From IMG/VR virus record IMGVR_UViG_3300032236_000404, positions 3,449 to 67,448 of that record: DNA of 64,000 nt; one strand, written 5' to 3'. A model generated the notes under the pieces. The model saw only the letters and a program-made list of their open reading frames with translations. It was not told the DNA's origin and searched no databases. Origin of the DNA: a virus. Position 1 is the stretch's first letter. Each line of letters opens with the position of its first letter. Below are positions 497 to 3,900 of the stretch, piece after piece. A program made the position numbers and the translations under genes.

Positions 497-549
497 TACA
501 CTCTCCGTTTTAGAATAGGGTTGCCAAGCCCTAGACATTCTCCTCAAAT

Positions 550-873
550 AAAAGTGGGGGATTCTGTTTCCAAGCTCCCCCGAGCTCATTTATGCTGCTA
601 GAGCATAAGAAGTAACGAAGTTGTCGTTAGCATCTATAAGTTTTATTGCGTTAACCGAGCTTTCGCCGGACTATCTACTTCAATCTTTACAGCACCAATC
701 GAAACCTATTTCGCCCCCATCAAAGATACATAGTCCCTTTAACCGCAAGTGTCCATTAGTCCCTTTCGGGTGTCCTTGAACGATAGGAATCGAACCTATT
801 ATGTATCCATGGTGGAGGCGGGGAGATTCGCACTCCCGTCTTGCCGCCTTATTCCATTGCTATCAACAATAGT
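550..873 (-). ncRNA. ssrA: tmRNA, circularly permuted two-piece form (acceptor piece ~873-810, intervening segment 809-719, coding piece 718-~550)
   Basis: The acceptor 3' end GGGAGTGCGAATCTCCC-CGCCTCCACCA (ends at 810) lies upstream of the 5' end GGGGGCGAAATAGGTTTCGA (starts at 718). The 7-bp acceptor stem has G3:U70. Tag frame 631-590 reads ANDNFVTSYALAA*. Outer ends approximate. Confidence 0.95.
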
Positions 874-877
874 AATA

Positions 878-908
878 TATTTATACTACTTTTGCCCTAG
901 AATGTCAA
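878..908 (-). promoter_or_regulatory. tmRNA promoter: sigma70-like TTGACA-17bp-TATAAA overlapping a T4-late-like TATAAATA
   Basis: TTGACA at 908-903, 17-bp spacer, TATAAATA at 885-878, directly before the acceptor piece. Confidence 0.75.
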
Positions 909-3900
909 ATCTTATATGGATTTGCACCAGGTCCTGAATCACCCCATACTGCTGGGTCATTTCTACTGTTGCCTGTATCATAAAGGCTTCTTCTAGTACC
1001 AAACTTAGCAAGTAACTTGCTTAATAATCCGCCTGCAATAAGTCCGCCGGTAATAGTACGCATAAGTGCTTCTATATTTTGATTGGTTACCTGTGCCAAT
1101 AACTCTAATACACCAAATATCATTTGATCTGTGTTAAATGGATTTGTATATTTTGTAGTGGAAATATCCCCATATAATGACTTATTGACAATCTGCATCA
1201 TAGTTGCAACAAAATATTCATTGTTTAATAAGATTAATCCATTACTCACTACTTTACCAAATGGCACAGATTCGCCATTTAGATTAACAATCAACAAGTC
1301 AGCACCCATGATCTTATTATCCTGAAGAACAATTGGGTTACCCTGAGCATCAGTAATTTGATTTGGTGTCAATGCATTTCCGCCGCCAACCACTAATCCA
1401 TGATTATTCATTGGCAGGATCGTTCCGCTAGGACCACTGGGATTACTTGTGATAGTATTATTTGCATTTCCAGGCTGTCCAGGAATAACAGTACCTAATA
1501 GATCATTCCCAGTATTAGTGTTTCCAGTTGTTACATTACCGGGAAAAGTTGTTCCCGGGGAAATGGTATTGCCAATAATATTTGTGCTTGGTACAACTGT
1601 ACCAGGAGTAGTTACATTACCTGTAATTGGATTGAAAGTTCCATAATTGATAGTTCTGCCTAAACTGGTAAATGAACCAACTGCTGGTGTTTGATACGAT
1701 CCAATAACAGTTCCGTTGTCAACAATTAACACATATTTGTCAATGGCATCTTTTACTACTTGACGTCCAATACCTTCTGCTATTGTAGTAGGAACATCAG
1801 TCCACTGAGTATCAACATACAATTCATCTTTCTGAGGAGATGTTAAAGGTATGTCATTATAAGGTGTTAATGTTTTATTTCTTACATAATTATAAACATC
1901 GCCTGGTTGAGCAGGATATACAGGTGTTGCTCTAAACTGAGGTTTAGCAGGCATATTTCCTGTATATAAATTTTGATAAAACTGTTCGGGATTTCTATAA
2001 TACTGACTCTGTGGCAATTTATATTGGTCAACATTAATGCCTAAATCTGCTAGTGCGGCAGCATTTCTTGCTTGACGCATAACATATTTTATCGAATCGC
2101 CATATAGATCGTTACTGGCTACACGCTCAATATATTCTGCTGGTTGTCCATATCCAGTTTGTAGTCCTAATGTTTCTAAACTGTCCATAAACATTTGAGC
2201 ATCACTAGGTTCAGATGGAGTTTCGTCGAACAAATTAATATTATGAGTATATAAATTATTTGCTTCTCTAACTAATTGAGCACAACTTGCATTATATGCA
2301 ACTGTTAATTTTTGTATATGATCTTGTAATGCAGGATCAGTTGACGCTAATAGTGCTGACTGTTGTGCTTCAATCAGCGGAACAAAAGTTAATACTGCAT
2401 CGTCGAGAGAACTAAAAGTTCCAACTCCAGGAACTGTAATACTTGCTGCTACAGATGGCACGCCGTTTGCATCATCGCCTGGAGTTCCAACATCTGTGTA
2501 TTTTCCATTTAGAGTATCGGTTAATTTAAGAGTTAAATCTTTTAGTGTTGCTGCATCAGGATGATTCATGATATATTCAGTAGAAGAAGTAATTACTGGA
2601 ATAGTATCTGTATGTACGTAACCAGCAGCAGTACCAATAAAATCTGCCATTGTTTGTTCGCCAAACGTGCCACCACCATAGCCATAAACACCCATTAAGT
2701 TTTGACCTACTTGAGTCACAGTGTCACTAGTAACAGTACTGATATGATTTAAATCAGTTCCAGTTTCAATCTTACTAAATGCCATACCAATGGCTCTCAT
2801 ATTTGTATCAGTGTTAATTCCAATAATTGAGAATTGTATACCCAATTCTCTAAAATTATGCACTGGAAGATAAGTTTTACTAGTGGGCATCATAACTTGT
2901 AGATTAGTAAGATCTCCCAATGAAGTGATATCAGTAGTCATATTAAATGCAGATTTAATAAATGATATTGTTTCAGGATCATTTAAGTTTGATAATGCTT
3001 TTTGAGATAGCCCATCAAATAACGGATTGTTGATCCCTGCTACAGGTAGTTTCAATTCTAATAATTGTTGAGTTAAACCTGTATGTTCGCCCAATCCTTT
3101 ATCTAGTATTTGTTGGCAAACATACCCAGGTTGCATTAGTCTCATTGGTTCACTTGCATTCCAAGTTCCCATTGCAATTAAATCAGCAGAAATTGCAGAA
3201 ATATTTTGACCTAGAGTAGTGACACTAAATGTCATGGCATCCTGCATATTTTTGGCTTTTGCACCATAACCACCATTAACAGGACCAAATTTCATTGCCA
3301 TTGCTTCGCTAATAGCACCTACTACTTCTTTATTCCCACTTACTGACGAAGAAACAGTACCAATTAGATTAGTAAATTTTAATTGAGCATTTACTTGTAC
3401 ACCGCCACTGTTTAAGTTTGGAAGATTTCCATTAATTGCACCTGCTGCAACTGAACCCAATACAGATCCTGCTGCATAATTACCAGTCATATTACCAACA
3501 TATGAACTAATAGCCCCTGATAGACCACCAGCAATTGCAAACTGCATAGCAGCGCCTTTAGGAGCATTACTTCCCATAGAACCTAATGCTGAGGTTAATC
3601 CATTAATTGCGGCTGATGCAATTTGAGGTGGCATAACTCCACTAAGTGCTGGAATCAAATTACCGCCCATACTGCTTAATGCACCAAATGCTGCACCTGT
3701 TAGTGCTTGAACTGGACTTTTTCCAGCGACTATTGCACCTAATGCACCGCCTAATGTCTGCCCTACTATTTGTCCTGCTGCTCCGCCTAAATCATATCCC
3801 AATGCATTACCAAATGCACCTGCTGCTGATCCAAGACCTGCACCCAATGCACCCTGTATGCCACCACCACTTAATAGTGCCATGCCCGCACTCATTGCAG

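What the first reader, a model, noticed from the sequence alone, without database searches (positions are those of the whole stretch)
719..809. Structured 91-nt RNA inside the tmRNA intervening segment (second T-arm, GNRA hairpin, repeated ANGGA)
Seen on the minus strand: a 9-bp closing stem (GGATACATA/TATGTATCT), a perfect T-arm ATAGG-TTCGATT-CCTAT, a CCC-GAAA-GGG tetraloop hairpin, two copies of GGACAC...AAGGGACTA, and five ANGGA motifs (one uses the A at 810). The tmRNA's own T-loop is non-canonical (UGCGAAU). Known: the Caulobacter spacer is only about 14 nt and is discarded; ANGGA is the CsrA/RsmA binding motif. Inference: tmRNA processing could release a separate small RNA acting as a tRNA mimic, nuclease decoy or protein sponge. 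CsrA is uncommon in Alphaproteobacteria, so the ligand is open.
Basis: partly seen in the sequence, partly recalled or inferred. Interest (0 to 1): 0.8.

Follow-up and report, generated by a model that had tools for sequence, protein, structure and literature searches.

The report
tRNA-like RNA inside phage tmRNA spacer
The stretch that is cut out of this phage's two-piece tmRNA is not junk spacer but one copy of a conserved, tRNA-shaped small RNA that other phages carry in the same slot or among their tRNA genes, so it is probably a new kind of phage tRNA mimic whose job is still unknown.

Summary

Folding the one sequence is not significant (z = -1.1). Comparison decides it. The segment belongs to a family of 10 distinct ~90-nt sequences at 13 places:
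- 7 lie in tmRNA IVSs, of both alpha-type and beta-type permuted tmRNAs.
- 2 lie in phage tRNA arrays.
- 1 stands alone between genes.

All share a four-way junction: closing stem, canonical T-arm, a stem capped by a GNRA hairpin, and a short GG-containing D-like hairpin. On the model-fitted alignment 98% of cells pair, 16 of 25 pairs change on both sides, and 0 of 500 shuffles reach this.

The order T-arm, capped stem, D-arm is that of the tRNA-like domain of bacterial YrlA Y RNAs. The Ro60-binding motif and a Ro60 gene are absent, and no Rfam family matches.

The CsrA idea fails: 2 of the 5 ANGGA motifs are conserved, and both lie partly in helices.

Most likely this is a tRNA-mimic RNA freed by tRNA-type processing. 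Its release, stability and target are inferred, not shown. More broadly, the IVS of these phage tmRNAs is a variable cargo slot closed by a conserved helix.

The parts
880..908 (-). Promoter-like site for the tmRNA gene: TTGACA (908-903), 17-nt spacer, TATAAA (885-880)
   Evidence: Read. The consensus scan listed no promoter here, because its rule needs T at position 6 of the second hexamer. Inference only.
810..873 (-). tmRNA acceptor piece, ending in CCA (812-810); its T-arm is GGGAG-UGCGAAU-CUCCC
   Evidence: RF04321 and RF01849 alignments; ARAGORN.
719..809 (-). Intervening segment, which is the tRNA-like module (91 nt)
   Evidence: Boundaries. Scores 86.6 bits with model R1 and 85.8 with R2.
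800..808 (-). P1 5' strand, GGAUACAUA. With one U-U mismatch (809 opposite 723) the helix can go on to C811-G721 and A810-U722, that is into the CCA.
   Evidence: P1 covaries: 6 of 7 pairs change on both sides.
783..799 (-). T-arm: stem 799-795 with 787-783, loop UUCGAUU 794-788
   Evidence: 3 of 5 pairs change on both sides; the loop UUCGA is invariant.
744..782 (-). Acceptor-like (AS) arm: P3a 782-781 with 745-744; UU bulge 780-779; P3b 778-775 with 749-746; internal loop GACA 774-771 opposite 760-750; P4 770-768 with 763-761; GNRA loop GAAA 767-764
   Evidence: P3a changes on both sides in 2 of 2 pairs and P3b in 1 of 4. The loop is GAAA, GCGA or GCAA in relatives.
733..743 (-). D-like hairpin: stem 743-741 with 735-733 (G-C, U-A, U-G), loop with GG
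   Evidence: In relatives the stem is 3-5 pairs, and 4 of 4 modelled pairs change on both sides. This is the weakest helix in the window's own copy.
724..732 (-). P1 3' strand, UAUGUAUCU
719..723 (-). Tail UUGAU, just before G1 of the coding piece (the expected RNase P site)
   Evidence: 110 of 112 related IVSs end in UG plus 2 nt, and 103 end in UGAU.
553..718 (-). tmRNA coding piece. The tag reading frame is 631-593, with stop UAA at 592-590.
   Evidence: The 3' end is uncertain: Rfam ends at 553, ARAGORN at 499.

Best explanation
What it is. The 91-nt IVS is one copy of a conserved family of ~90-nt phage RNAs. They fold as a four-way junction shaped like a tRNA opened at the anticodon loop:
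- P1 takes the place of the anticodon stem.
- A canonical T-arm follows directly.
- Next comes an acceptor-like arm closed by a GNRA hairpin, with a strongly conserved internal loop.
- Last is a short D-like hairpin whose loop holds GG.

Where it sits. It rides as cargo in the IVS slot of the phage's two-piece tmRNA gene.

How it would work (inferred steps).
1. The pre-tmRNA is cut by tRNA-processing enzymes: RNase P at G718, and 3'-end maturation at CCA 810.
2. These cuts free the module with a short 3' tail.
3. The compact tRNA-like fold, with a T-loop/D-loop elbow, keeps it stable.
4. It then acts in trans as a tRNA mimic that occupies a factor which recognises the tRNA elbow and acceptor end. 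The factor is unknown: a host tRNA-directed enzyme or defence nuclease, or an exoribonuclease as with Y RNAs.

Shown here: the family, its helices, its covariation, and its places in genomes.
Inferred: the cleavage sites (by homology with permuted tmRNAs), the release and stability, the elbow contact, and the trans action.
For: 1. Family.
- The core 19-mer, or a degenerate form of it, recovers the module at 12 further places. That gives 10 distinct sequences including the window.
- Model R1 scores members at 80-94 bits. The best non-member among 372 loci plus the window scores 29.3 bits and is an ordinary tRNA T-arm.

2. Structure (alignment A3, 10 sequences, 25 pairs).
- 98.0% of cells pair, against 78.8% in shuffles and 25-48% when partners are slid by 1-3 columns.
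- 16 of 25 pairs change on both sides; 0 of 500 shuffles reach any of the five measures.
- By helix, pairs with changes on both sides: P1 6 of 7, T 3 of 5, P3a 2 of 2, P3b 1 of 4, D 4 of 4.
- The P4 loop varies only within GNRA: GAAA, GCGA, GCAA.

3. tRNA-likeness.
- The T-loop is UUCGA-N-N closed by G-C in all 10.
- GG is present in every D-like loop or at its edge.
- The order T, AS, D between a terminal stem is the one described for YrlA (PMC4201824, section 6).

4. Independence from tmRNA.
- The host tmRNAs are alpha-type (window, L369, L363), beta-type (L361, L362, L364), or called only by the general permuted model (L192).
- L367 and L374 lie in tRNA arrays. L367 ends 4 nt before tRNA-Ser.
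- L373 (identical to L375 over the stretch printed) is intergenic, with no tRNA or tmRNA called.

5. Dispensable for tmRNA.
- Related tmRNAs have IVSs of 10-12 nt, or quite different cargo.
- The L002/L007 acceptor piece is 97% identical to the window's over 65 nt, yet carries another IVS.

6. Processing. PMC11915505 (passages read) states that permuted transcripts are cleaved by tRNA-processing enzymes.
Against: - No RNA data show the excised piece. The one RNA-run contig laid covers only part of a relative's coding piece.
- There are only 10 distinct sequences. They were found through an invariant 19-mer or a near form of it, so the conservation of the AS arm is partly ascertainment, and P4 never varies.
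- Alignment A3 was fitted to the model, which leans towards the structure.
- The comparative fold of the window's copy is 4.7 kcal/mol worse than its MFE (-16.0 against -20.7). P3b and the D stem have pair probabilities of about 0.05.
- The junction has almost no linkers: no variable loop, and 0-1 nt where a tRNA has U8 and N9. The D-loop is short. An L-shape with an elbow is therefore plausible but not assured.
- The window's D stem has only 3 pairs, one of them U-G.
- There is no partner protein: no TROVE/Ro60 in the window's record or in five other records. All six are fragments, 8-28% complete.
- No isolated phage in the GenBank phage collection carries the module.
Confidence: 0.55

Rival explanations
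1. Cis-acting processing or folding element. The module works only within the precursor. Its closing helix, which can pair with the CA of the upstream CCA, and its tRNA-like body would guide or insulate the cuts that make the CCA 3' end and the downstream 5' end. It would be degraded afterwards.
For: - In 9 of the 10 distinct sequences the module follows a CCA within 0-3 nt: 7 tmRNA acceptor pieces, tRNA-Leu in L374, and an ACCA in L373. P1 can extend over CA with UG.
- In L373 and L374 P1 reaches 15 and 13 pairs.
- 110 of 112 related IVSs end in UG plus 2 nt.
- The module ends 4-5 nt before an RNase P site in the tmRNAs and in L367.
Against: - L367 lies about 85 nt downstream of the nearest tRNA, with no CCA beside it.
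- L373 has no tRNA or tmRNA on either side.
- Most related tmRNAs manage with other cargo or with 10-12-nt IVSs, and only 3 of 112 IVSs hold a strict T-arm. The module is therefore not needed for processing.
- The strongest conservation is in the AS internal loop, far from either cut site.
Confidence: 0.2
2. Selfish or neutral cassette. The IVS with its closing helix is a swappable, perhaps mobile, DNA or RNA cassette that spreads between tRNA-like genes. It is kept because it is harmless there, and has no role for the phage.
For: - The same module sits in alpha-type and beta-type tmRNAs and in tRNA arrays.
- More than 100 distinct cargos share similar closing helices.
- The L002/L007 acceptor piece is 97% identical to the window's but carries another IVS.
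- Contigs of lake metagenome runs join positions 730 and 801 around other content (table 5; what lies between is not known).
Against: - Compensatory changes in five helices, and a loop kept as GNRA, show selection on the RNA fold and not only on terminal repeats.
- No transposase, integrase or homing endonuclease was seen in or beside the IVS, which is 91 nt. This was not searched for systematically.
Confidence: 0.1
3. CsrA/RsmA-type protein sponge acting through repeated ANGGA motifs.
For: The window has five ANGGA in 92 nt against 0.37 expected.
Against: - The other members have 2-3. Only AAGGA (777) and AGGGA (764) are kept in all 10, and their G's lie in helices P3b and P4, not in hairpin loops.
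- The GGA enrichment follows from the conserved G-rich helices.
Confidence: 0.03
4. New self-cleaving ribozyme that cuts itself out of tRNA/tmRNA precursors.
For: A compact junction with a highly conserved internal loop next to a GNRA hairpin, always at processing sites.
Against: - No known ribozyme family matches, even at E up to 10.
- From general knowledge of small ribozymes: self-cleavage would leave a 2',3'-cyclic phosphate on the CCA end, which would block charging of the tmRNA.
Confidence: 0.04

Closest known systems
YrlA / bacterial Y RNA tRNA-like domain (Chen et al. 2014, PMC4201824; sections 5 and 6 and passages read)
   Same: - A terminal stem, then a T stem-loop, an acceptor-like stem-loop closed by a loop, and a D stem-loop, in that order. 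This is a tRNA opened at the anticodon end.
- A canonical T-loop, and GG in the D-loop.
- Also encoded by phages.
   Different: - No GNCGAAN0-1G Ro60-binding motif in any P1 5' strand.
- No TROVE gene in the 67-kb record or in five other records.
- No V arm.
- Here the AS arm is the most conserved part and the D arm varies, which is the reverse of YrlA.
- It lies inside a tmRNA IVS or a tRNA array, not beside Ro60.
- No Rfam family matches at E up to 10. That Rfam holds a YrlA model is recalled, not checked.
Intervening segment of permuted (two-piece) tmRNA genes (RF04321, RF01849, RF01850; PMC11915505, passages read)
   Same: It has the same position, between the CCA of the acceptor piece and G1 of the coding piece. 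It is removed by tRNA-processing enzymes, according to that paper.
   Different: The IVS is usually treated as discarded spacer, and the Rfam models leave it unstructured. That paper notes one permuted tmRNA with an intact tRNA-Ala gene in its IVS as 'a unique feature', and one with a repetitive element. A conserved tRNA-like non-tRNA module shared by several tmRNA types is not mentioned in the passages read.
tRNA-like RNAs released by RNase P from longer transcripts (mascRNA of MALAT1), and the small stable RNAs of the phage T4 tRNA gene cluster (species 1 and 2). Both are recalled; no paper was read.
   Same: A small structured RNA that owes its ends to tRNA processing, and that sits among or next to tRNA-type genes.
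   Different: No sequence or structural comparison was made here. mascRNA is a cloverleaf in the normal order; this module is permuted.

Membership tests
Permuted (two-piece) tmRNA | Covariance-model score over the curated threshold | tested here: met
   RF04321 111.9 bits (threshold 47); RF01849 106.3 bits (threshold 50).
Permuted (two-piece) tmRNA | Gene order: acceptor piece with CCA, then IVS, then coding piece with a tag reading frame | tested here: met
   CCA 812-810; IVS 809-719; G1 at 718; tag ANDNFVTSYALAA.
Permuted (two-piece) tmRNA | Mature RNA in two pieces, with the IVS removed | not testable with these tools
   No RNA reads over the IVS.
YrlA / bacterial Y RNA | T stem-loop, acceptor-like stem-loop and D stem-loop, in this order, closed by a terminal stem | tested here: met
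   Helices parsed in all 10 sequences. Covariation. Definition from PMC4201824, section 6.
YrlA / bacterial Y RNA | GNCGAAN0-1G motif near the 5' end (Ro60/Rsr binding) | tested here: not met
   None of the ten P1 5' strands or their upstream 8 nt shows it, by reading.
YrlA / bacterial Y RNA | Encoded within about 4 kb of a Ro60 (TROVE) gene on the same strand | tested here: not met
   PF05731 gives 0 matches in G000 (67,448 bases), which covers more than 4 kb on both sides. It also gives 0 of 5 in the records of L364, L362, L192, L374 and L375. A Ro60 gene elsewhere in these incomplete genomes is not excluded.
YrlA / bacterial Y RNA | Bound by Ro60; T-loop pseudouridine and D-loop dihydrouridine | not testable with these tools
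   Needs experiments.
tRNA | Cloverleaf in the normal order, with an anticodon arm | tested here: not met
   ARAGORN and RF00005 call nothing in 809-719. The helix order is permuted and there is no anticodon loop.
CsrA/RsmA sponge RNAs | Several conserved GGA motifs exposed in loops or single strands | tested here: not met
   Only 2 of the window's 5 ANGGA are conserved, and both lie partly in helices P3b and P4.
Known self-cleaving ribozymes and other Rfam families | Match to a curated covariance model | tested here: not met
   Within 830-700 at E up to 10 there are only tmRNA models and two chance-level hits. Nothing lies on the L367 copy at E up to 1.

The most novel reading that the evidence does not exclude
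Phage tmRNA genes use their intervening segment as a general expression slot: a conserved closing helix next to two tRNA-type cut sites, which delivers varied cargo. This cargo is a new, Ro60-independent class of permuted tRNA mimic. After release it would act as a decoy or adaptor for a host factor that reads the tRNA elbow and acceptor end, for instance a tRNA-directed defence enzyme. That would give large phages a tRNA-based counter-measure that needs no anticodon.
Probability: 0.25. Interest if true: 0.8.

Novelty: new variant of a known kind. Interest (0 to 1): 0.65.

Why it matters
- If the module is released and active, it adds a new family to the short list of natural tRNA mimics (tmRNA, Y RNA-like RNAs, viral tRNA-like structures).
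- It would show that the 'discarded' piece of two-piece tmRNAs can be a gene in its own right.
- It makes a concrete question testable: what reads a tRNA elbow joined to a capped acceptor arm during infection by large phages?
- The wider pattern matters for annotation. More than 100 different cargos, some with small reading frames, lie behind one conserved closing helix, and IVSs are currently ignored.
- The same pattern suggests a natural, RNase P-dependent way of expressing small RNAs.
- The module is absent from Rfam and from isolated phages in GenBank, so it would otherwise stay unseen.

Tried and rejected
Single-sequence folding gave no significant signal and did not predict the T-arm. 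It was not used as evidence for or against.

The exact T-arm 17-mer hit more than 118 viral loci. Those examined are ordinary phage tRNA T-arms, so this scan says nothing about the IVS.

One search was a scan with a mistyped pattern (one base too many). It found 0 loci and was wasted. One search is the corrected pattern.

a looser pattern, gave 16 new loci:
- 0 of the 16 match model R2 at E up to 0.001.
- By reading they are tRNA-tRNA junctions or coding sequence.

Genome scan: 3 hits of the 19-mer, none in a module context. No bacterial copy was found at this exact-match sensitivity.

Two of the five metagenome hits (L366, L368) are also unrelated contexts.

GenBank phages: only 22-nt T-arm matches in Streptomyces phages for the window's copy, and no match for the L374 copy.

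Pair counts were therefore made on A3, after adding the D stem to the model.

An error of my own: I mis-indexed P1 by one, which gave a meaningless positive energy. One search is the corrected version.

SmpB (PF01668) and CCA-adding enzyme (PF01743) were sought in the window's record: 0 matches each. The record is 19% complete, so this says little.

RNA evidence:
- The look-up of sequencing runs listed one RNA run, holding 0.06 of the words.
- Laid on the stretch, it gave one 207-nt contig on 555-702 with 11 differences. That is a relative's coding piece and says nothing about the IVS.
- Parts without cover are not interpreted.

I did not re-permute the module and score it as a tRNA, because that needs a joined, altered sequence.

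Supplements of PMC4201824 (YrlA alignments and phage tables) and of PMC11915505 (tmRNA tables) could not be seen. They may list phage YrlA-like RNAs or IVS contents that bear on novelty.

Searches behind the claim that this is not in print. No listed paper describes a conserved tRNA-like module in tmRNA IVSs. Only listings, abstracts and the passages named were read.

Full report
**Setting.**
The window is a fragment of an uncultivated virus record of 67,448 bases, which CheckV rates 19% complete. This suggests a large phage. Its genes fit that reading:
- a tail sheath protein
- both ribonucleotide reductase chains
- a helicase
- cell-wall hydrolases
- one tRNA-Ala

G+C is 34-42%.

A permuted, two-piece tmRNA gene lies on the minus strand at the left end. 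It matches RF01849 (912-553, 106.3 bits) and RF04321 (873-590, 111.9 bits). ARAGORN with tag ANDNFVTSYALAA. A near-consensus TTGACA-17-TATAAA stands at 908-880; I read this, and the scan did not list it. The gene lies between a 1213-aa protein with a weak CHAP match and a cell-wall hydrolase.

**The observation.**
The CCA of the acceptor piece is 812-810 and the coding piece begins at G718. All listed features are present:
- the 9-pair closing stem (808-800 with 732-724)
- the T-arm AUAGG-UUCGAUU-CCUAU (799-783)
- CCC-GAAA-GGG (770-761)
- the two GGACAC and two AAGGGACUA
- five ANGGA

The five ANGGA are far more than the 0.37 expected. Only 60 of 127,816 windows of 92 nt hold as many. The fold of the single sequence, however, is no better than shuffles (z = -1.11).

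**Relatives of the tmRNA, and the IVS as a slot.**
- 112 of the 151 have a closing helix of at least 7 contiguous pairs, usually 10-14. The other 39 are very short IVSs or chance matches to the loose pattern.
- The helix sequence differs between lineages while staying complementary. There are forty different 5' octamers, among them UGGAUACA, UAGAUACA, UAAACACA and UAAGCACU.
- 110 of the 112 end in UG plus two bases, and 103 end in UGAU. The CA of the CCA can therefore join the helix, either directly (29 cases) or across one mismatch (80 cases; the window is of this kind).

Between the two strands the content is unrelated from one lineage to the next.
- Some relatives have only 10-12 nt.
- Some long IVSs hold small reading frames behind GGAG-like sites. 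One is a 55-codon hydrophobic frame conserved between L022 and L019.
- The acceptor piece of L002/L007 is 97% identical to the window's over 65 nt but is followed by a different 71-nt IVS with another closing helix.
- Contigs of two lake metagenome runs join 730 to 801 around other content (table 5).

The IVS thus behaves as an exchangeable cassette in a fixed slot.

**The window's cargo is a family.**
One of those IVSs, L192, shares the window's interior: 24 and 14 identical bases, next to a T-arm with two compensatory pair changes. Scans with the core 19-mer and a degenerate form of it found more members.

| Context | Distinct sequences | Loci |
|---|---|---|
| tmRNA IVS | 7 | window, L192 (= L365), L361, L362, L363, L364, L369 |
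| Phage tRNA array | 2 | L367, L374 |
| Stand-alone, intergenic | 1 | L373 (= L375) |

- L367 lies between tRNA-Thr and tRNA-Ser and ends 4 nt before tRNA-Ser.
- L374 lies between tRNA-Leu and tRNA-Tyr.
- L373 has no tRNA or tmRNA called nearby.

The host tmRNAs are of different kinds:
- alpha-type: window, L369, L363
- beta-type: L361, L362 and L364 (RF01850, 99.5-123 bits)
- L192 is called only by the general permuted model

Their tags all differ.

A covariance model built from eight members scores members at 80-94 bits. Nothing else in 372 loci plus the window scores above 29.3 bits, and the weak hits examined are tRNA T-arms. None of the other ~140 IVS types matches. No bacterial genome holds the core in a module context, and no GenBank phage holds the module.

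**Structure.**
All ten sequences parse into the same six helices:
- P1
- directly after it, a 4-5-pair T-stem with loop UUCGA-N-N
- directly after that, P3a (2 pairs), a bulge of 2-5 nt, and P3b (CAAG/CUUG; GAAG/CUUC in L369)
- an internal loop, GACA opposite AC(N)AA-NNN-ACA
- P4, CCC/GGG, capped by GAAA, GCGA or GCAA
- a 3-5-pair hairpin whose loop holds GG, then the P1 3' strand

Results on the model-fitted alignment A3:
- 98.0% of 247 cells pair, against 78.8 ± 1.5% in shuffles and 25.5-48.5% when partners are slid by 1-3 columns.
- 16 of 25 pairs change on both sides.
- 0 of 500 shuffles reach any of the five measures.
- P4 never varies and says nothing either way.

Caveats: there are ten sequences, the alignment is fitted to the structure, and the members were found through the AS-arm sequence.

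In the window's copy the comparative fold costs -16.0 kcal/mol against an MFE of -20.7, and the D stem has only three pairs. Thermodynamic prediction missing a tRNA-like fold is not unusual, but it means the window's copy alone would not have revealed the fold.

**What it resembles.**
The helix order is that of a tRNA opened at the anticodon loop:
- P1 stands for the anticodon stem.
- The T-arm runs straight into the 5' strand of P3, as a tRNA T-arm runs into the acceptor 3' strand.
- P3 is closed by a hairpin where the tRNA ends would be.
- The D-like hairpin runs straight into the P1 3' strand, as the D-arm runs into the anticodon stem.

This is the arrangement described for the tRNA-like domain of YrlA, the bacterial Y RNA: T, then an acceptor-like stem-loop, then D (PMC4201824, section 6). 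YrlA-like RNAs are also known from phages (PMC4201824, section 5; PMC12135203, passages).

Membership fails on the defining points:
- No GNCGAAN0-1G motif.
- No TROVE gene in the window's whole 67-kb record or in five other records.
- The conservation pattern is reversed: here the AS arm is conserved and the D arm varies.
- No Rfam model matches.

I therefore file it as working like a YrlA-type tRNA mimic, not as a YrlA.

**Mechanism proposed.**
- Shown: the conserved fold; the position of the module directly after a CCA in 9 of 10 distinct sequences; and its end 4-5 nt before an expected RNase P site in the tmRNAs and in L367.
- From the literature: permuted tmRNA transcripts are cut by tRNA-processing enzymes (PMC11915505, passage).
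- Inferred: RNase P cuts at 719/718; maturation of the CCA end frees the 5' side; exonucleases trim the tail back to P1; the compact fold protects the rest; and the RNA then acts in trans on something that reads the tRNA elbow and acceptor end.

The most conserved part, the internal loop of the AS arm, lies about 11-12 pairs from the T-loop. That is where a tRNA's acceptor end would be, which is why I favour a factor that reads that end. Which factor it is remains open.

Rivals, with rough odds:
- a purely cis-acting processing element (0.2)
- a selfish cassette (0.1)
- a new ribozyme (0.04)
- a CsrA sponge (0.03)

The CsrA reading fails because only two ANGGA are kept and both sit partly in helices. 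The module occurs in tmRNAs whose T-loops read GGTTCGA.

**Novelty and limits.**
Six literature searches and the passages read found no description of such a module. The tmRNA database paper notes a single IVS with a whole tRNA-Ala gene as unique.

No RNA data bear on the IVS. The family is small and known only from metagenomic phage fragments.

I rate it a new variant of a known kind: a tRNA-like non-coding RNA of the permuted, YrlA-like type. It is of good interest because it is well supported as a structure, unexpected in its place, and testable.

Noticed in passing
L002-L039 and L158-L360 (IVSs listed): The IVS of these phage tmRNAs is a hypervariable slot. There are 151 distinct IVSs of 10-293 nt, and 112 have a closing helix of 7 or more pairs whose sequence covaries between lineages. 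110 of the 112 end in UG plus 2 nt, so the CA of the CCA can pair.
   Followed up: partly
L022, L025 and L019 (IVS 174-175 nt); also L355, L034, L161, L180: Small reading frames sit inside long IVSs, behind GGAG-like sites. L022 and L019 share a 55-codon hydrophobic frame that runs into the first bases of the tmRNA coding piece. L355 holds a frame of 97 or more codons.
   Followed up: partly
L164, L306, L307, L199, L343, L220, L321, L263 (IVS 86-91 nt): This is a second recurrent cargo family. By eye, an inner hairpin changes from CCAA...UUGG to CUAC...GUAG between members, which looks compensatory. Other cargos may therefore also be structured RNAs.
   Followed up: no
L376 1487-1805 (Caulobacter phage CcrRogue JX100814.1, about 102,546-102,864): A cultivated Caulobacter phage has a permuted tmRNA (RF04321, 88.2 bits) with an IVS of about 104 nt and G+C-rich closing pairs. 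The record annotates nothing there, and ARAGORN does not call it.
   Followed up: partly
L197 (IVS 76 nt): A different IVS carries a T-arm (ACGG-UUCGAAU-CCGU) in the normal tRNA position, 2 nt before the 3' strand of an 8-pair closing stem. That makes 8 + 4 = 12 pairs, like a tRNA minihelix.
   Followed up: no
L373 7773-7860 and L374 339-426: In the copies outside tmRNA genes the closing helix is 15 and 13 pairs long. It includes ACCA (L373) or the CA of the upstream tRNA-Leu (L374).
   Followed up: partly
L002 and L007 compared with window 875-810: Their acceptor piece is 97% identical to the window's over 65 nt. The coding piece is only 75% identical, and the IVS and its closing stem are different. 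This points to cassette exchange or recombination within the gene.
   Followed up: partly
window 880-908 (minus strand): A near-consensus promoter, TTGACA-17-TATAAA, overlaps the stop codon of the upstream 1213-aa gene. The tmRNA gene therefore probably has its own start near 873.
   Followed up: no
runs X2, X3, X14 laid on window 540-920: Contigs of lake and freshwater metagenome runs carry pieces of this tmRNA at 99% or more. One short, deep contig follows the window's module from 818 to 760 and then continues with a variant of the AS arm. Close relatives of the module are therefore present in those runs.
   Followed up: partly
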